Shown: positions 24,531 to 31,445 of the stretch, one piece after another
Numbering within the stretch: the first letter of the stretch is position 1
Layout: each line of letters starts with the position of its first letter
IMG/VR virus record: IMGVR_UViG_3300003310_000099
Location: 1-42,294 of that record
Length of the DNA stretch: 42,294 nucleotides
Source of the DNA: a virus
Taxonomy: Duplodnaviria; Heunggongvirae; Uroviricota; Caudoviricetes
Direction: 5' to 3' (one strand)
Notes under the pieces: generated by a model
What the model was told of the DNA's origin: nothing
What the model saw: only the letters and a program-made list of their open reading frames with translations
Databases searched by the model: none
Program-made: the position numbers and the translations under genes

Positions 24531-24600
24531 GCGTCCCCTAAAGGAAGAACTTACAAACAACAAGGTTATGTTTAAATGATAGTTCTTTAAACTTGGACGC
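24531..24600 (+). ncRNA. module 2 (type A): minimal Y-RNA-like RNA
   Basis: GCGTCC/GGACGC terminal helix, GAAGAAC/GTTCTTT inner helix, TTACAAAC, followed by a T-run. Confidence 0.8.
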
Positions 24601-24757: not shown

Positions 24758-24881
24758 GGGGGATAAAGAAAGCTTTGATGACTTGGACAAGAAATTGTCC
24801 CCAACGGTTTGAGCTTACAAACTTTAAGGTAAAGAAAAGACTTTTAATCTTTTTAAGTGGGTTCAACTCCCACATCCTCCA
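24758..24881 (+). ncRNA. module 3 (type B): tRNA-Lys(TTT) with Y-like module inserted between acceptor stem and D-arm
   Basis: GGGGGAT/ATCCTCC; insert GACTTGGACAA-gaaa-TTGTCCCCAA...GCTTACAAAC; D-arm CTTT-AAGGT-AAAG; AAAGA-CTTTTAA-TCTTT; GTGGG-TTCAACT-CCCAC. Confidence 0.8.
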
Positions 24882-24953: not shown

Positions 24954-25064
24954 GGGGTTTAAAAAGGCTTGGAGAACTTAGACAGGAAACTGTCTCCCAC
25001 TTTTTAAGCTTACATACTGGAAAGCAAGGAAACTTGCAAGTTGGTTCGAGTCCAACAAACCCCG
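24954..25064 (+). ncRNA. module 4 (type B): anticodon-less tRNA-like RNA with Y-like insert
   Basis: GGGGTTT/AAACCCC; AACTTAGACAG-gaaa-CTGTCTCCC...GCTTACATAC; GCAAG-GAAA-CTTGC replaces the anticodon arm; GTTGG-TTCGAGT-CCAAC. Confidence 0.8.
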
Positions 25065-25068
25065 CTAA

Positions 25069-25201
25069 CTGTCTCCTATGTTGGGAACTTACAAACATCA
25101 AGTGGGTTCGACTCCCATCAGCAGTTCGCTGCTGTAGCCTAACGGTCAGGCAACTGGCTTTTAACCAGTCTTAAAAAGACGAGTTTTCATGACTTAGACA
25201 G
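25069..25201 (+). ncRNA. module 5 (type A): Y-like stem enclosing a circularly permuted tRNA-Lys(TTT) (YrlA-like order)
   Basis: CTGTCT/AGACAG ends; inside: T-arm GTGGG-TTCGACT-CCCAT, acceptor CAGCAG-TTCG-CTGCTG, D-arm GCCT-AACGGTC-AGGC, ACTGG-CTTTTAA-CCAGT. Confidence 0.85.
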
Positions 25202-25209
25202 TTAATTTT

Positions 25210-25342
25210 GCCAAGGTAGTCTAAAAAACTATTAGTTACAGTGACTTAGACAAGTAATTGTCTCCAATGGTTGTAACTTACAAACAGGTAAGACGTTATC
25301 CTCATAAGGTAAAGTTTGTTGGTTCAAATCCAACCCTTGGCA
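25210..25342 (+). ncRNA. module 6 (type B): tRNA(CAT) with Y-like module inserted in the D-loop
   Basis: GCCAAGG/CCTTGGC; D-stem GTCT/AGAC; insert GTTACA-GTGACTTAGACAA-gtaa-TTGTCTCCAA-tggt-TGTAAC-TTACAAAC; TTATC-CTCATAA-GGTAA; GTTGG-TTCAAAT-CCAAC. Confidence 0.85.
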
Positions 25343-25503: not shown

Positions 25504-25568
25504 GTGGGAGTAGCTCAATGGAGAGCGCCAGTATACTGGAGACGTTGGTTCAAACCCAATCTTCCGCT
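25504..25568 (+). ncRNA. tRNA-like RNA lacking an anticodon loop
   Basis: GTGGGAG/CTTCCGC; GCTC-AATGGA-GAGC; CCAG-TATA-CTGG (4-nt loop); GTTGG-TTCAAAC-CCAAT. Confidence 0.7.
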
Positions 25569-25570
25569 TT

Positions 25571-25697
25571 TGTCTGTCACCGATGTTGAGAACTTACATA
25601 CAATTAGCTCAGTAGATGAGCGTAACTAAGCAGAAGTTAAGGACGTGGGTGCGAATCCCACATTGTTAAAAATCAGTTTTCATGACTTGGACAGACA
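25571..25697 (+). ncRNA. module 7 (type A): Y-like stem enclosing a degenerate tRNA
   Basis: TGTCTGTC/GACAGACA; GAGAAC/GTTTTC; ACTTACATAC; GCTC-AGTAGAT-GAGC; TAACT-AAGCAGA-AGTTA; GTGGG-TGCGAAT-CCCAC; T-run follows. Confidence 0.8.
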
Positions 25698-25716
25698 TTT
25701 TTTTTATATATTGACG

Positions 25717-26208
25717 ATGGGTGTGGATAAAAAGTTTGAGCAGTTAGGTTGTAATTTAGGAAGTGCCGCAATCAAATTGAGAAAGTTAGTTCTTTTTGAT
25801 TTGATTGTTAAGTTTGGTCTAAATAAATGTTATCGGTGCGGTAAAGTGATTGATGCTGTCGATGACTTTACTTTAGATCACAAGATTGATTGGTTAGACT
25901 CGGCTAATCCTGAAGAGTTGTTTTTTGATGTTTCTAATGTAGCTTTTAGTCATGCTCTTTGCAATACATTGGCTAGACGAACGCCAAATAAGGTTAGAGG
26001 TAAAGTAGGTTTTAAGGGTGTTTATTTTGATTCGGGGAGAAAAAAACCTTATAAGGCAGAGTTAGAAACTAAAATCAACGGTGAAAAGAAAGTCTACAGG
26101 TTAGGTAGATTTGGTACAGCAGAAGAAGCAGCTTTGGCTTATGATTTGAAAGCCAAAGAAATTTTAGGAAATCGAGCTATATCAAATCATGATATGGGCT
26201 TGATATGA
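25717..26208 (+). mobile_element. HNH-AP2 (homing-type) endonuclease CDS inserted in the RNA array
   Basis: CYRCG...LDHK...N...SHALCN (HNH with Zn site) followed by GFKGVYFD...RLGRFGTAEEAALAYD (AP2). Confidence 0.85.
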
Positions 26209-26786: not shown

Positions 26787-26837
26787 GCTGCTAAAACTTA
26801 GACAGGAAACTGTCTCCAAACATAGTAGCTTACAAAC
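26787..26837 (+). ncRNA. module 10 (type B hairpin)
   Basis: GCTGCTA/TAGTAGC; ACTTAGACAG-gaaa-CTGTCTCC; TTACAAAC. Confidence 0.75.
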
Positions 26838-26923: not shown

Positions 26924-26974
26924 GCTGCTAAAACTTGGATGCGAAAGCGTCCCCAAACTTAGAAGCCTACAAAC
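26924..26974 (+). ncRNA. module 11 (type B hairpin)
   Basis: GCTGCTA...ACTTGGATGC-gaaa-GCGTCCCC...TAGAAGC-CTACAAAC; isolated T-arm GTTGG-TTCAAAT-CCAAC at 27053-27069. Confidence 0.7.
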
Positions 26975-27079
26975 TTTTTAAAGATGCCAAGTGCAAATTG
27001 TTAGAAAAATGCCCATGTAATGTACAATGAGGCGTGAAAAGGTAGTAATGAAGTTGGTTCAAATCCAACACGCGCTAAT

Positions 27080-27200
27080 TTCCGTCCCCTACAAGGTTAG
27101 TTTACAAACATAGCTCATTAGTAGAGCGCAACCATTAGAAGGTTGAAGTAATTGGTGCGAATCCAATTGTTTCTCGATAGCTGACTAAACTTGGACGGAA
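27080..27200 (+). ncRNA. module 12 (type A): Y-like stem enclosing a degenerate tRNA
   Basis: TTCCGTCC/GGACGGAA; TTTACAAAC; GCTC-ATTAGTA-GAGC; CAACC-ATTAGAA-GGTTG; ATTGG-TGCGAAT-CCAAT; 5-bp acceptor AAACA/TGTTT. Confidence 0.8.
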
Positions 27201-27204
27201 CAAT

Positions 27205-27289: not shown

Positions 27290-27493
27290 ATGTTAATCTG
27301 CGATAATGGGAATAAGTGTGGGAAGGGTAAAGTGCCATCATGCACTAACCAAGCCATACATATTATCCATACCGTAGATGACAAAGGCAATATAATAGAA
27401 GGGCCAGTCATCAATTTGTGTGATGAACATTTTGATGTGGCAATGCGGTTGGGACTTGTTACTGAGCCGTATATGGGATACGAAGTAACTTGA
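27290..27493 (+). CDS. small hypothetical protein (Cys/His)
   Basis: 67-aa ORF after tRNA-Cys. Confidence 0.45.
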   Translation: MLICDNGNKCGKGKVPSCTNQAIHIIHTVDDKGNIIEGPVINLCDEHFDVAMRLGLVTEPYMGYEVT

Positions 27494-27517
27494 CAATGCG
27501 GAAAATTGTGGTATAGT
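27490..27517 (+). promoter_or_regulatory. sigma70-type promoter for the Ubl-like gene
   Basis: TTGACA-N16-TATAGT. Confidence 0.7.
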
Positions 27518-27870: not shown

Positions 27871-28001
27871 GCGGGAGTAGCTGAATAGTAAATAGTTTTT
27901 TATACTTAGACGGGCTAAACTCCGTCTCCGACTTGAAAAACTTACAAACAAGCGTCAGTATTCTAAACTGAAGTATGTGGGTGCGACTCCCACCTCCCGC
28001 T
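27871..28001 (+). ncRNA. module 13 (type B): tRNA-Arg(TCT)-like RNA with Y-like module in the D-loop
   Basis: GCGGGAG/CTCCCGC; GCT/AGC; AGTTTTT/AAAAACT; ACTTAGACGG...CCGTCTCC; CTTACAAAC; TCAGT-ATTCTAA-ACTGA; GTGGG-TGCGACT-CCCAC. Confidence 0.8.
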
Positions 28002-28187: not shown

Positions 28188-28254
28188 TCCGTCTCCTAAA
28201 AAGGAAGCTTACAAACTAGCCAATGTTTAACACAGCTTCCTAAACTAAGACGGA
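28188..28254 (+). ncRNA. module 14 (type A): minimal Y-RNA-like RNA
   Basis: TCCGTCT/AGACGGA; AGGAAGCT/AGCTTCCT; CTTACAAAC; T-rich tail. Confidence 0.8.
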
Positions 28255-28277
28255 TTTATTTTTATTTTAAGTGACTT

Positions 28278-28405
28278 GTTTTGTCCCCAATGTTGAGAAC
28301 TTACAAACAATTTGCTCAACGGTAGAGCATCAACCTCCAAAGTTGAAAGTGTTGGTTCAAATCCAGCATTGTTTACCAAAACAGTTTTCAAGACTTGGAC
28401 GAAAC
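28278..28405 (+). ncRNA. module 15 (type A): Y-like stem enclosing an intact tRNA-Trp
   Basis: GTTTTGTCC/GGACGAAAC; GAGAAC/GTTTTC; ACTTACAAAC overlaps the tRNA 5' end. Confidence 0.85.
28305..28378 (+). tRNA. tRNA-Trp(CCA) with encoded CCA end, nested in module 15
   Basis: AAACAAT/ATTGTTT-A-CCA; GCTC-AACGGTA-GAGC; TCAAC-CTCCAAA-GTTGA; GTTGG-TTCAAAT-CCAGC. Confidence 0.8.
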
Positions 28406-28503: not shown

Positions 28504-28574
28504 TCTGTCCCCTATAGGTAAAACTTACAAACATTACCAATGACGATGCTAAAAGTTTTACAAACTTGGACAGA
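28504..28574 (+). ncRNA. module 16 (type A): minimal Y-RNA-like RNA
   Basis: TCTGTCC/GGACAGA; GTAAAACT/AGTTTTAC; CTTACAAAC. Confidence 0.8.
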
Positions 28575-28592: not shown

Positions 28593-28660
28593 TCCGTCCC
28601 CTATAAGAAGAACTTACAAACACTCAATTATCGTTTAACAGTTCTTTTGACTTGGACGGA
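28593..28660 (+). ncRNA. module 17 (type A): minimal Y-RNA-like RNA
   Basis: TCCGTCC/GGACGGA; GAAGAAC/GTTCTTT; CTTACAAAC; T-run follows. Confidence 0.8.
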
Positions 28661-28680: not shown

Positions 28681-28708
28681 TTGACAGACGCCAAATTTGT
28701 AGTATCAT
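28681..28708 (+). promoter_or_regulatory. sigma70-type promoter for the TROVE gene
   Basis: TTGACA-N16-TATCAT. Confidence 0.7.
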
Positions 28709-28825: not shown

Positions 28826-28850
28826 AACTAGGACAGGAAACTGTCCCCAA
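28826..28850 (+). promoter_or_regulatory. P1-type hairpin of the array module adjacent to the TROVE SD
   Basis: AACTAGGACAG-gaaa-CTGTCCCCAA then c-AAGGAG-N8-ATG. Confidence 0.7.
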
Positions 28851-28865
28851 CAAGGAGAATTGAAA

Positions 28866-30368
28866 ATGGCTAATACTGAAATTGATACCCGTCTCAACAT
28901 CCTTAACACCCTGTTGACCACTCCTCACTGTAAGCTGGATCAGGTTTACCCGATTCACGCTGAGATGATTAAGCAAGACCCGTTATTCTACGGTCGTTTG
29001 GGTGCATGGTACAATGACACTGGTGACGTTCGTGACCACAAGGAAATGTTCGTCATCAACATGTGCCTGAGTGACTTTGAAGGCCACCGTGACGCTGGAT
29101 TGGCAATGCTGCGTGAAATGCCACCGTACCAGCTTGGCCGTGTCGTAGACTTCATCCACGGTCGTAAGGACACTAAGAAGTCCAAGGCCAAGAAGGGTGA
29201 AACTCCAACCACGACGGTTGAAAACTACGGTTTGTTCAAGAACATTCCGCGTTCCGTCAAGACGGAAGTGGTTCGTTATCTCCGTGAACGTGAAGCGGAA
29301 CCAGAGTGGTTCGATTCTTGCGCCGTCACTGCGCGTAAGTATTTGAAGCGTCTCTATGCTCTCATGCACATTAGCCCAAATGAGCGTGCGCAGAAGATTC
29401 TCTTTGAAGATTTGCCGCCAGAAGATTCCAAGCTGTTCGCAGTGAAGGAACTCTTCAAGGCGAAGACGCCAGCGGAACAGGCCAAGACGATCATGGCGCA
29501 CAAGATTCCGTACCGTATCGCTTCGACGGTCGTTTCTGCCATGACTCCGACCGTACTCTTGGCTTTGATTGAAGTTATGTCGGATATGGAGTTAATCAAT
29601 AACCTTGGTTCTCTCCGTAAGCGTGGTGCATTTGAGAATCCAGACCTCAAGGCACTCATTGAGAAGAAGCTTGAGAAGGCCAAGTCTGGTAAGCGTGTTT
29701 CGGCACTCAAGGCAACTGAAGCCGTTAAGTCGGCTGGTGTTGATGATGCTACGGTCAAGCAACTGGAAGCGGTTGCTGACTCGCAGTTGAAGAAGAAGGG
29801 CCGTATCAATCGCTCTACTGCACTGCTGATTGATAAGTCTGGCTCCATGAGTCAGGCTATCGAATTGGGCAAGCAGATTGGTTCGATGATTTCTGCTATC
29901 ATGGATGCAGATTTGTATGTATACGCTTTCGACACGATGGCGTATCCCCTCAAGGCACAGGGCACCGACCTTGCTTCCTGGGACAAGGCATTGCGTGGTA
30001 TCAACGCTGGGGGTGGAACCTCTTGCGGTGTGCCTCTTGAGTACATGATTCGCAACAAGCAGCTTGCGGAGAACATTATCGTCATCACGGACGAAGGCGA
30101 AAACGGTACTCCTGCATTCGTGCCGACCCTGAAGAAGTACATGGCTGAACTCAAGGCAACCCCTTCTGTCTGCTTTGTAAAGACTACGGGTGCATCGAAT
30201 CAGCTTGAACAGCAGATGCAGCGTGAAGGACTGAACTGTGACGCCTGGCAGTTCAGTGGGGATTACTACAGTCTGCCCAACTTGATCCCCTACCTGTCCA
30301 AGCCATCGAAGGTCGATCTTCTGATGGAAATCATGTGTTACGAAATGCCTGTCCGCAAGACGGCATAA
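28866..30368 (+). CDS. Ro60-like TROVE + vWA domain RNA-binding protein
   Basis: N-terminal helical region (QDPLFYGRL...DVRDHKE; MSDMELINNLGSL resembling the Ro60 MPxxALLRNLG motif) and C-terminal vWA MIDAS (LLIDKSGSM, GGGTSCG, VITDEGEN); SD AAGGAG; biased codon usage (CGT, AAG). Confidence 0.75.
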   Translation: MANTEIDTRLNILNTLLTTPHCKLDQVYPIHAEMIKQDPLFYGRLGAWYNDTGDVRDHKEMFVINMCLSDFEGHRDAGLAMLREMPPYQLGRVVDFIHGRKDTKKSKAKKGETPTTTVENYGLFKNIPRSVKTEVVRYLREREAEPEWFDSCAVTARKYLKRLYALMHISPNERAQKILFEDLPPEDSKLFAVKELFKAKTPAEQAKTIMAHKIPYRIASTVVSAMTPTVLLALIEVMSDMELINNLGSLRKRGAFENPDLKALIEKKLEKAKSGKRVSALKATEAVKSAGVDDATVKQLEAVADSQLKKKGRINRSTALLIDKSGSMSQAIELGKQIGSMISAIMDADLYVYAFDTMAYPLKAQGTDLASWDKALRGINAGGGTSCGVPLEYMIRNKQLAENIIVITDEGENGTPAFVPTLKKYMAELKATPSVCFVKTTGASNQLEQQMQREGLNCDAWQFSGDYYSLPNLIPYLSKPSKVDLLMEIMCYEMPVRKTA

Positions 30369-30971: not shown

Positions 30972-31445
30972 ATGAAAATGACCAAGACTATTCAACTATT
31001 AGAAGACCAGTTGAAAGGCATAAGAAGATCATCCATCAGTCCTGGTTTTATCGAAACCTTGAAAGTTCCTTACTACGGGCAGATGACTCCCATTCGTTTT
31101 GTGGGGACCGTAGGCAGGTGTCAGGCTGGCATTACTATAACACCGCATGACCCGAACTTGGTGAACAGTATTGCTAAGTCGTTACAAGAGGATAATTTGC
31201 TGAACGCTTATGCGTTCTCAAAAACAACAGTTGTGGTAAGTGTCCCACCTGCTAACACAGGTGAGATTGAAAGAATAAAGTCGCATATCAGGAAATTAGG
31301 CGAAGATGCCAAGATTTCTATCAGGAATTTAAGGAAAAGTGTAAGACAAAATTTGTCCAAGGAAGAACAAAAAGAAATAGATAAGGATTTGCAACTTTTG
31401 ACAGAGGAACATTGCAATAAAATTGAGGATATTATCAATGACTAA
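30972..31445 (+). CDS. frr: ribosome recycling factor homolog
   Basis: LKGIRRSSISPGFIETLKVPYYG...VSVPP...AKISIRNLR...LQLLTEEH pattern of RRF. Confidence 0.85.
   Translation: MKMTKTIQLLEDQLKGIRRSSISPGFIETLKVPYYGQMTPIRFVGTVGRCQAGITITPHDPNLVNSIAKSLQEDNLLNAYAFSKTTVVVSVPPANTGEIERIKSHIRKLGEDAKISIRNLRKSVRQNLSKEEQKEIDKDLQLLTEEHCNKIEDIIND

What the first reader, a model, noticed from the sequence alone, without database searches (positions are those of the whole stretch)
28278..28405. Intact tRNA-Trp with CCA nested in a Y-like stem; two decayed relatives
The conserved ACTTACAAAC supplies the 5' acceptor strand (AAACAAT) of a complete tRNA-Trp(CCA) ending in ACCA, so the 5' leader and 3' trailer pair to form the Ro-like stem. 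Modules 7 (25571) and 12 (27080) share this layout, including tgttgagaac and agttttca flanks in module 7, but have 5-bp acceptors, TGCGAAT T-loops and non-canonical anticodon loops. Inference: a precursor in which Ro binding could gate or chaperone tRNA maturation, plus a visible series from functional tRNA to mimic.
Basis: partly seen in the sequence, partly recalled or inferred. Interest (0 to 1): 0.72.

Follow-up and report, generated by a model that had tools for sequence, protein, structure and literature searches.

The report
tRNA-shaped Y RNA beside phage Ro60
A huge bacteriophage encodes, just upstream of its own Ro60 protein gene, a small RNA in which a structurally perfect tRNA ending in CCA sits on top of a conserved double stem; related copies in phages and bacteria carry almost any anticodon, so it is most likely a tRNA-shaped Ro60 partner RNA, not a working tryptophan tRNA.

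Summary
Window 28305-28378 is a complete cloverleaf (ARAGORN Trp-CCA; Rfam tRNA 66 bits) followed by ACCA. Its leader and trailer form two helices (P1, P2). Its first four bases come from the array-wide CTTACAAAC motif. It lies 555 nt upstream of a gene whose model folds as Ro60.

The design is a family. I found about 80 full-length copies next to related Ro60 genes in huge phages, metagenomes and bacterial genomes of at least four phyla. All helices covary (0 of 500 shuffles reach the observed values).

The "functional tRNA-Trp decaying to mimics" reading is not supported:
- The ortholog in the closest phage (Ro60 94% identical) has the same body but anticodon UAG.
- The family shows 22 anticodons on one class-I body, many starting with A or belonging to Leu, Ser or Tyr.
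- The discriminator is A73, whereas the phage's two ordinary tRNA-Trp genes have G73.
- Modules 7 and 12 belong to a recurring UGCGAAU T-loop subtype, not a set of wrecks.

Encoded NCCA is enriched (15/41 against 14/281 free tRNAs; 0 of about 55 in this phage).

Best reading: a new, unpermuted variant of the tRNA-mimicking Y RNAs. Release of the tRNA and gating by Ro60 remain untested. The scan has noted similar RNAs in other genomes.

The parts
28278..28286 (+). P1 helix, 5' strand (GUUUUGUCC)
   Evidence: In the minimum-energy fold. 9 of 9 pairs show double changes across 35 modules, 93% paired. Compensated against L002: GUCC/GGAC becomes GUCU/AGAC.
28287..28292 (+). Conserved internal loop, 5' side (CCAAUG). 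CC and the A at 28290 are invariant or nearly so. Presumed Ro60 contact site.
   Evidence: Invariant and near-invariant columns C14 and A17 in alignment A2. The Ro60 contact is inferred by analogy with the bulged Ro60-binding helix of Y RNAs (PMC4201824).
28293..28301 (+). P2 helix, 5' strand (UUGAGAACU)
   Evidence: 8 of 10 pairs with double changes. U-A becomes A-U against L002.
28300..28308 (+). Array-wide motif CTTACAAAC. UAC is the 3-nt linker; AAAC is tRNA nucleotides 1-4.
   Evidence: 34 matches against 14 expected, 17 of them on the + strand between 24.4 and 28.7 kb. T29, A30, C31, A32, A34 and C35 are invariant in A2. Same register in other loci.
28305..28375 (+). Complete unpermuted tRNA cloverleaf, class I. 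Anticodon CCA at 28337-28339; discriminator A at 28375.
   Evidence: ARAGORN; Rfam 66.2 bits; D, anticodon and T stems 96-99% paired with covariation.
28376..28378 (+). Encoded CCA directly after the discriminator
   Evidence: NCCA occurs in 15 of 41 nested tRNAs against 14 of 281 free tRNAs in the same loci, p = 7e-8. None of the roughly 55 other tRNA genes of this phage has it.
28379..28382 (+). Single-stranded 3' linker AAAC
   Evidence: The linker after CCA is A-rich across the family.
28383..28391 (+). P2 helix, 3' strand (AGUUUUCAA)
28393..28396 (+). Conserved internal loop, 3' side (ACUU)
   Evidence: A120, C121 and T122 are invariant and T123 nearly so in A2. ACTTRGAC occurs 15 times against 2.3 expected.
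28397..28405 (+). P1 helix, 3' strand (GGACGAAAC)
25567..25697 (+). Module 7: same scaffold. tRNA-like domain with 5-bp acceptor, UGCGAAU T-loop, no GG in the D-loop, anticodon loop AAGCAGA, no CCA.
   Evidence: Model R1 100.9 bits, E 3e-24, not in the training set. Rfam tRNA 36.8 bits.
27075..27201 (+). Module 12: same scaffold. tRNA-like domain (ARAGORN 'Leu-UAG', class-I length), UGCGAAU T-loop, canonical anticodon loop, no CCA.
   Evidence: 99% identical copy in L018.
28860..30368 (+). Ro60 homologue (HEAT-repeat ring plus vWA), 502 aa
   Evidence: AlphaFold2 model, pLDDT 85. Foldseek full-length matches to human, Xenopus, D. radiodurans and phage phiLo Ro60, E 4e-12 to 2e-8, TM 0.54-0.66. 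Weak sequence matches.
27490..27517 (+). Nearest strong upstream promoter-like site (TTGACA-16-TATAGT). The module is probably cut out of a multi-module transcript.
   Evidence: 11 of 12 matches. The next such site, 28681-28708, lies downstream of the module, before the Ro60 gene. Consensus match only.

Best explanation
The module (28274-28405) is a non-coding partner RNA of the phage's Ro60 protein, a Y RNA in the functional sense.

**Shown.**
- Two covarying helices are made by the 5' leader and 3' trailer.
- They are separated by a conserved internal loop (5' CC.A / 3' ACUU).
- They carry a complete, unpermuted tRNA cloverleaf with an encoded NCCA.
- The design recurs next to homologous Ro60 genes in huge phages and in bacteria.
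- The anticodon triplet varies freely, while the tRNA framework of the loop (U33, purine 37) is kept.

**Inferred.**
- Ro60 binds the P1/internal-loop region, as it binds the bulged helix of other Y RNAs.
- The tRNA domain stays attached and is the effector end. It is read by tRNA-recognising proteins such as RNase P, modification enzymes or other tRNA binders, as for YrlA.
- The 'Trp' anticodon is incidental.
- The encoded CCA either serves recognition by RNase P or acts as the known anti-determinant against RNase Z. The second role would keep the tRNA tethered to its stem in a system whose ordinary tRNA genes all lack CCA.
- RNase P may nick at C28304/A28305, leaving a two-piece particle held together by P1 and P2, as documented for M. 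smegmatis YrlA.
For: **Structure.** tRNA calls; fold z = -4.6.

**Covariation.** 35 independently aligned modules are 88% paired, and 32 of 40 pairs show double changes. None of 500 shuffles reaches this, and slid registers reach only 34-46% paired. G-U pairs are frequent, so the signal is at RNA level on the + strand.

**Closest relative.** Window against L002: 17 differences, 5 of them in the 7-nt anticodon loop (p = 3e-4). All 8 helix changes preserve pairing.

**Ro60 link.**
- The gene 555 nt downstream on the same strand folds as Ro60.
- The 5' module motif lies upstream of 118 of 151 homologous Ro60 loci.
- In this 373-kb genome the modules occur essentially only at 24.5-28.6 kb.

**Family size.** Model R1 finds 63 full-length copies in viral and metagenome loci, and 15 in 12 bacterial genome loci from Planctomycetota, Cyanobacteria, Chloroflexota and Desulfobacterota.

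**Not a decoder.**
- 22 distinct anticodons in 38 nested tRNAs.
- A34 other than ACG in 7 of 38, against 1 of 273 free tRNAs (p = 2e-6).
- 17 of 38 carry Leu, Ser or Tyr anticodons, all on short class-I bodies.
- 72-86% identical to nested tRNAs with other anticodons, 52-54% to the phage's own tRNA-Trp genes.
- A73 here and U73 in L002, against G73 in the phage's two standard tRNA-Trp genes.

**Loop framework kept.** U33 in 28 of 35, purine 37 in 34 of 35, A38 in 31 of 35.

**CCA.** 15 of 41 against 14 of 281, p = 7e-8.

**Precedent.** YrlA and Yrn1 carry tRNA-like domains. M. smegmatis YrlA is cut by RNase P, gains CCA and stays bound to Rsr (PMC4201824).
Against:
- Rfam's Y_RNA and YrlA models do not match this module at E <= 1.
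- The YrlA motif GNCGAAN0-1G is not a conserved feature here.
- A 7-bp acceptor, an accessible NCCA and a perfect tertiary core are exactly what a releasable, chargeable tRNA would need. NCCA conservation is more simply explained by a free 3' end being used.
- The acceptor stem is nearly all A-U. It is not in the thermodynamic minimum in the nested context: cloverleaf -33.3 against -37.6 kcal/mol.
- The RNase Z anti-determinant idea rests on knowledge from other bacteria and was not tested.
Confidence: 0.6

Rival explanations
1. Gated pre-tRNA. The module is a precursor. RNase P and a 3' endonuclease or exonuclease release a 74-nt tRNA ending in the encoded CCA, which is charged and used in translation. 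Ro60 bound to the leader-trailer stem delays or chaperones this release.
For: - Fully canonical cloverleaf with 7-bp acceptor, single-stranded NCCA and 3-nt 5' linker.
- NCCA is strongly enriched in the best-formed nested tRNAs.
- Canonical U33 and R37 are kept.
- A1-U72, as in bacterial tRNA-Trp and in the phage's own Trp genes.
- The phage encodes a CCA-adding-type nucleotidyltransferase and about 55 other tRNAs, so it invests in translation.
Against: - The anticodon is not conserved between orthologues: CCA against UAG at 94% Ro60 identity.
- The family carries Ser, Leu and Tyr anticodons on class-I bodies, and many A34 anticodons.
- One shared acceptor and body goes with discriminators A, U and G.
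- A73 where bacterial TrpRS identity uses G73 (established knowledge). The phage already has two standard tRNA-Trp genes with G73.
- There is no phage TrpRS.
- The invariant UUAC leader is also present in cargo-free modules, so it is scaffold and not a pre-tRNA leader.
Confidence: 0.17
2. Decoy or sponge. The Ro60-tethered tRNA domains imitate host or phage tRNAs so as to absorb tRNA-targeting defence nucleases (anticodon nucleases) or other tRNA-binding factors. The variable anticodon triplets track different targets. This concerns the biological role and is compatible with the architecture in the best explanation.
For: - The anticodon triplet is hypervariable while the loop framework is conserved.
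- Many differently loaded modules sit in one array.
- Nested tRNAs are more frequent in viral loci (10 of 16) than in bacterial genome loci (4 of 74).
- Ro60/Y RNA loci in Salmonella are linked to tRNA damage and repair (title and abstract of PMC7790460).
Against: - There is no RtcB in this phage, and no RNA-repair genes were seen nearby.
- The family also occurs in bacterial chromosomes, where an anti-defence role is less obvious.
- No nuclease target is known, so this is purely inferential.
Confidence: 0.13
3. An ordinary phage tRNA flanked by a processing stem of the RNase III type, like the leader-trailer stems around rRNAs, with no specific link to Ro60. Or merely a tRNA between DNA-level inverted repeats.
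For: - A long leader-trailer duplex of about 19 bp with internal loops.
- The module probably lies within a polycistronic transcript.
Against: - The same scaffold with invariant loop nucleotides occurs without any cargo.
- It is confined to the Ro60 locus in this genome and in 118 of 151 homologous loci.
- Frequent G-U pairs and one-strand covariation exclude a DNA-only repeat.
- The anticodon statistics argue against ordinary tRNAs.
Confidence: 0.05

Closest known systems
YrlA (Y RNA-like A; Rfam RF02553) of Salmonella, Mycobacterium and mycobacteriophages (Chen et al. 2014, PMC4201824)
   Same: - Encoded within a few kb upstream of, and on the same strand as, a Ro60 homologue.
- A stem formed by the RNA's two ends, plus a domain that mimics tRNA (D arm, T arm, acceptor, Levitt pair).
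- Several different Y RNAs per locus.
   Different: - YrlA's tRNA-like domain is permuted: the Ro60 stem takes the place of the anticodon arm and the acceptor stem is a closed hairpin. Here the stem prolongs the acceptor end, and a full anticodon arm and NCCA are present.
- The Rfam YrlA model does not hit this module.
- The GNCGAAN0-1G motif is not conserved.
- The Ro60 is a divergent subfamily that Pfam's TROVE model does not detect.
Mycobacterium smegmatis YrlA processing (Chen et al. 2014)
   Same: A 7-bp acceptor stem makes the Y RNA an RNase P substrate. A CCA end is present, and both halves stay with Rsr. This gives a precedent for a nicked, still-assembled particle.
   Different: There the CCA is added after cleavage. 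Here it is encoded and internal, followed by AAAC and the P2 strand.
Deinococcus radiodurans Yrn1
   Same: - Both strands of the Ro60-binding helix are recognisable.
- When drawn as a tRNA, the Ro60 stem sits at the acceptor side and there is an 'anticodon arm' with a 5-bp stem. This is the same topology as here.
   Different: Yrn1 is only a loose mimic: 6-nt loop, no variable region, doubtful D arm. The present RNA scores 66 bits against the tRNA model and is called a tRNA by ARAGORN.
Vertebrate Y RNAs (Ro60-binding bulged helix; 5' strand GGUCCGA, per PMC4201824)
   Same: - Terminal stem made from the 5' and 3' ends, with a conserved bulge or internal loop.
- The 5' strand here (GUCC-CC-NA) shares GUCC.
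- From my memory of hY sequences, not tested here, the 3' strand ACUUGRAC resembles their ACUUGAC.
   Different: - No match to Rfam Y_RNA at E <= 1.
- Vertebrate Y RNAs have no tRNA domain.
Thermus phage phiLo Ro60 with Yrl1/Yrl2 (PMC12135203)
   Same: - A phage-encoded Ro60 with Y-like RNAs encoded just upstream.
- The phiLo protein is a fold match of the protein here.
   Different: The phiLo Yrl RNAs are described as stem-bulge-stem RNAs with a CGAA motif. No complete tRNA domain is reported.

Membership tests
tRNA (structural family, Rfam RF00005) | Cloverleaf with 7-bp acceptor, D, anticodon and T arms, and a score above the gathering threshold | tested here: met
   66.2 bits against a cut-off of 29, full model. 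ARAGORN Trp-CCA.
tRNA (structural family, Rfam RF00005) | Conserved tertiary nucleotides (U8, A14, G18G19, U33, R37, T54 T55 C56, A58, 15:48 pair) | tested here: met
   Read from the sequence and the cmscan alignment.
Functional bacterial tRNA-Trp | Anticodon CCA conserved in orthologues | tested here: not met
   The positional orthologue in L002 (Ro60 94% identical) has UAG on the same body. The family has 22 anticodons.
Functional bacterial tRNA-Trp | Discriminator G73, a bacterial TrpRS identity element (established knowledge) | tested here: not met
   A73 here and U73 in L002. The phage's two standard tRNA-Trp genes have A1-U72 and G73.
Functional bacterial tRNA-Trp | Mature 5' and 3' ends, aminoacylation, use on ribosomes | not testable with these tools
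Y RNA (Ro60 partner RNA, functional class) | Encoded close to a Ro60 homologue, on the same strand | tested here: met
   555 nt upstream of 28860-30368, which folds as Ro60. Same arrangement in related loci.
Y RNA (Ro60 partner RNA, functional class) | 5' and 3' ends pair into a long stem with a conserved bulge or internal loop | tested here: met
   P1 and P2 with covariation; invariant CC.A / ACUU loop.
Y RNA (Ro60 partner RNA, functional class) | Bound by Ro60 | not testable with these tools
   No RNA-protein prediction or pull-down data available.
Y RNA (Ro60 partner RNA, functional class) | Match to curated covariance models (Rfam Y_RNA RF00019, YrlA RF02553) | tested here: not met
   No hit on 28274-28405 at E <= 1. 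The only YrlA hit in the array is 26.3 bits at 25102-25151, against a cut-off of 69.
YrlA subfamily | Permuted tRNA-like domain: closed acceptor hairpin, with the Ro60 stem in place of the anticodon arm | tested here: not met
   Here the stem continues from the acceptor end and a full anticodon arm is present. YrlA topology from PMC4201824.
YrlA subfamily | Conserved GNCGAAN0-1G motif near the 5' end | tested here: not met
   The 5' strand is GUCCCCAA. A GACGAA occurs only in the 3' strand of this copy and is not kept in L002 (AGACAAAAU).

The most novel reading that the evidence does not exclude
The nested tRNAs are real, releasable adaptor molecules. Ro60 would hold a reservoir of CCA-ended tRNAs with unusual anticodons (including UCA, UAG and A34 types) on a single body that is charged by one synthetase regardless of anticodon. 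Their release would let the phage or cell recode or rescue translation on demand. A weaker form of the same idea: this family is the living intermediate showing that Y RNAs arose from pre-tRNAs whose leader and trailer became a Ro60 handle.
Probability: 0.12. Interest if true: 0.9.

Novelty: new variant of a known kind. Interest (0 to 1): 0.62.

Why it matters
Bacterial Y RNAs are known to mimic tRNA, but only as permuted (YrlA) or loose (Yrn1) imitations, and what the tRNA-like part is for remains an open question.

Here the Ro60-type stem carries a tRNA that every detector accepts as genuine, including an encoded CCA. The anticodon is demonstrably free to drift.

This gives the field a clean natural experiment:
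- a large family (about 80 copies retrieved here, in huge phages and four bacterial phyla);
- the features under selection can be read off directly: elbow, acceptor, NCCA, U33/R37, the CC/ACUU loop and the UUAC linker.

It makes several questions directly testable. Is the tRNA end used by RNase P, RNase Z, CCA-adding enzymes, synthetases or defence nucleases? Does Ro60 control that access? It also supports the idea that Y RNAs descend from tRNA precursors.

For genome annotation, such 'tRNA genes' next to Ro60 genes should not be counted as decoders.

Tried and rejected
**Led nowhere**
- Rfam at a permissive threshold over the array gave only tRNA hits, one sub-threshold YrlA hit elsewhere and noise.
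- Pfam does not detect TROVE in the protein, only a sub-threshold vWA_Ro60 match. Sequence searches of the PDB were weak. The fold search settled the matter.
- Context for RNA repair or charging: no RtcB, no class-Ib synthetase such as TrpRS, and nothing RNA-related in 29 neighbouring ORFs apart from a ribosome recycling factor homologue and an HNH-AP2 endonuclease.
- Literature: no paper in the held library describes unpermuted, CCA-bearing tRNAs inside Ro60-type stems. Two reviews (PMC10870794, PMC6047535) are not held, so prior description cannot be excluded.

**Considered and rejected**
- The 5' strand of P1 pairs with a neighbouring module instead of its own trailer. Rejected for this module. 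L002's 3' strand AGAC matches its own GUCU, not the GUCC of the next module downstream. Such local hairpins do exist elsewhere in the array.
- A chance inverted repeat or DNA-level repeat. Rejected by one-strand covariation and the frequency of G-U pairs.
- Modules 7 and 12 as decayed pseudogenes. Rejected because the UGCGAAU T-loop type recurs in L008, L018 and, as UGCGACU, in L009, always with a D-loop lacking GG. That association is only modestly significant, p = 0.025, from a crude parse.

Full report
**What is there.** The window is the first 42 kb of a 373-kb virus record with about 58 tRNA genes. Between 24.4 and 28.7 kb, the + strand carries some 17 copies of a module. The module is defined by GTCYCC, about 10 nt, CTTACAAAC, a variable insert, then ACTTRGAC. 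In this genome the module is confined to that stretch.

The array ends 200 nt before a 502-aa gene (28860-30368). Its AlphaFold2 model (pLDDT 85) matches full-length Ro60 from human, Xenopus, Deinococcus and Thermus phage phiLo (Foldseek E 4e-12 to 2e-8, TM 0.54-0.66). Sequence methods alone gave only weak hits.

**The observation.**
- ARAGORN calls tRNA-Trp(CCA) at 28305-28378, and Rfam's tRNA model gives 66.2 bits over the whole model.
- The acceptor is AAACAAT/ATTGTTT, followed by A73 and CCA. All the usual invariant and tertiary positions are present.
- The first four bases come from CTTACAAAC.
- The 128-nt module folds at -37.6 kcal/mol (z = -4.6). It has a 9-bp P1 and a 9-bp P2 formed by leader and trailer, plus the D, anticodon and T arms.
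- The A-U-rich acceptor is not in the minimum-energy structure. The full nested cloverleaf costs 4.3 kcal/mol more.

**It is a family, and the structure covaries.** The Ro60 protein has thousands of relatives. I fetched 177 loci around them from viral, metagenome and genome collections.

ARAGORN found 41 distinct tRNAs that start in the same register on the motif and are followed by ACTTRGAC. A MAFFT alignment of 35 of them was not fitted to any structure. On it, P1, P2 and the cloverleaf are 88% paired, and 32 of 40 pairs show changes on both sides. None of 500 column shuffles reaches any of the five measures, and sliding the partner by 1-3 columns drops pairing to 34-46%. P1 has 9 of 9 covarying pairs. 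G-U pairs are common, so this is an RNA on the + strand.

A covariance model built from the alignment scores the Trp module at 128 bits. Module 7, which was not in the training set, scores 100.9 bits. The model finds 63 full-length copies in viral and metagenome loci. It finds 15 more in 12 bacterial genome loci: Planctomycetota, Cyanobacteria, Chloroflexota and Desulfobacterota. The 5' motif lies upstream of 118 of 151 loci with enough flank. Nested tRNAs are commoner in viral loci (10 of 16) than in bacterial genome loci (4 of 74).

**Is it a tryptophan tRNA?** The evidence says no.

1. *The closest relative.* In the closest phage (L002, Ro60 94% identical) the positional orthologue has the same body, but its anticodon loop is UUUAGAC and its discriminator is U. 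Of 17 differences between the two modules, 5 fall in the 7-nt anticodon loop (p = 3e-4). All 8 changes in helices keep pairing, including two full compensations in P1 and P2.
2. *The whole family.* The 38 nested tRNAs with a three-base anticodon carry 22 different anticodons. Seven start with A other than ACG, against 1 of 273 free tRNAs in the same loci. Seventeen are Leu, Ser or Tyr anticodons on short class-I bodies.
3. *Sequence kinship.* The module is 72-86% identical to nested tRNAs with other anticodons, but only 52-54% identical to the phage's two ordinary tRNA-Trp genes (G000 50805 and 50885). Those genes have the bacterial A1-U72/G73 signature.
4. *The loop framework is conserved.* U33 occurs in 28 of 35, purine 37 in 34 of 35 and A38 in 31 of 35, while positions 34-36 are close to evenly distributed.

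So selection keeps a tRNA-shaped anticodon loop but not a codon specificity.

**The CCA.** None of the phage's other tRNA genes, about 55 of them, encodes CCA. Yet 15 of 41 nested tRNAs have NCCA, against 14 of 281 free tRNAs in the same loci (p = 7e-8). The best-formed nested copies nearly all have it, usually followed by an A-rich linker. This feature is clearly selected, and it is the strongest argument that the 3' acceptor end is used by something.

Two readings fit:
- recognition of RCCA by RNase P, as for M. smegmatis YrlA, which is cut by RNase P and carries CCA while staying on Rsr (PMC4201824);
- protection from RNase Z, for which CCA is a known anti-determinant (established knowledge from other bacteria, not tested here). 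That would keep the tRNA attached to its handle.

A free, chargeable CCA end after endonucleolytic release cannot be excluded.

**Modules 7 and 12.** Both are bona fide family members with 5 contiguous acceptor pairs, UGCGAAU T-loops and no CCA.

The UGCGAAU T-loop recurs in L018 and L008, and as UGCGACU in L009. L008's Ro60 is 56% identical to this one. In each case the D-loop lacks GG, which hints at a co-varying elbow. The association is only modestly significant (p = 0.025). A third elbow type (GGUGUCRAAACC) also exists. These look like maintained subtypes, not stages of decay.

**Comparison with what is known.** YrlA RNAs mimic tRNA but are permuted. The Ro60 stem replaces the anticodon arm and the acceptor is a closed hairpin. 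Yrn1 has the same topology as here but is a poor mimic (PMC4201824). Phage Ro60 with Y-like RNAs is documented for mycobacteriophages and for phiLo. Rfam's Y_RNA and YrlA models do not recognise this module. I found no description of unpermuted, CCA-bearing tRNAs in Ro60-type stems in the held literature. Two key reviews could not be read.

Earlier notes of this scan describe similar RNAs beside Ro60 genes in other phage genomes. The kind has therefore been met before within the scan.

**Mechanism, with status.**
- *Shown:* the architecture, its conservation, its linkage to Ro60, free anticodons and enriched NCCA.
- *Inferred:* Ro60 binds P1 and the CC/ACUU loop. The tRNA domain is the effector end and normally stays tethered. 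The module is cut out of a longer transcript, since the nearest strong promoter-like site upstream is at 27490 and the next one, at 28681, serves the Ro60 gene.
- *Untested:* RNase P nicking, RNase Z avoidance, any charging and any decoy role.

I put 0.6 on the tethered Y-RNA reading, 0.17 on a releasable functional tRNA and 0.13 on a decoy role as the main purpose. About 0.05 goes to a Ro60-independent processing stem or a mere DNA repeat, and the remaining 0.05 or so is unassigned.

Noticed in passing
G000 (own genome) 167507-167581, + strand, outside the window: ARAGORN calls a tRNA with anticodon CUA (labelled 'Pyl'); Rfam tRNA scores 66 bits. It could be an amber suppressor, which raises the question of whether part of this phage reads TAG as sense.
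   Followed up: no
window 24531-24600, 28188-28254, 28504-28574, 28593-28660: In all four cargo-free minimal modules the loop after CTTACAAAC contains GTTT followed by (A/T)A. AAAC could therefore still form a 4-bp mini acceptor stem. They look like nested-tRNA modules with the body deleted.
   Followed up: partly
window 25645-26208 (+): An ORF with HNH endonuclease and AP2 DNA-binding domains sits inside the RNA array, between module 7 and a tRNA-like element. It is probably a homing endonuclease.
   Followed up: partly
window 30972-31445 (+): A ribosome recycling factor homologue (Pfam RRF, E 1e-23) lies 600 nt downstream of the Ro60 gene.
   Followed up: no
window 28827-28868; L002 5967-6010: A P1-type hairpin (GGACAG-GAAA-CUGUCC followed by CC) abuts the Shine-Dalgarno sequence of the Ro60 gene and is kept in L002. 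This is a possible autoregulatory site. Another finding of this scan already noted it.
   Followed up: partly
window 24781-24814, 24976-25009, 25244-25277, 26796-26829, 26933-26966, 27904-27941: At several module junctions, the 3' P1 strand of one unit and the 5' P1 strand of the next form a local hairpin. It is closed by a GNRA tetraloop in five of the six junctions (a longer loop at 27904) and has its own compensatory changes. So P1 exists in two topologies in this array.
   Followed up: partly
alignment A2: Anticodon UAG is the commonest in nested tRNAs (7 of 38, from several unrelated loci). I did not test whether this is more than chance or shared descent.
   Followed up: no
L005 4870-5000, L059 2052-2183, L057 3993-4123: A third elbow variant of the nested tRNA: T arm GGUGUCRAAACC together with a D-loop lacking GG.
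   Followed up: no
L003 1-151 and 956-1143: Two group I intron matches (Rfam, 56 and 67 bits) lie in the tRNA-rich region upstream of the Ro60 locus of another phage contig.
   Followed up: no
G000 333410-333892 (- strand), outside the window: A 508-aa open frame with a PolyA_pol head domain. This is a candidate phage CCA-adding enzyme, in a genome whose ordinary tRNA genes all lack CCA.
   Followed up: no
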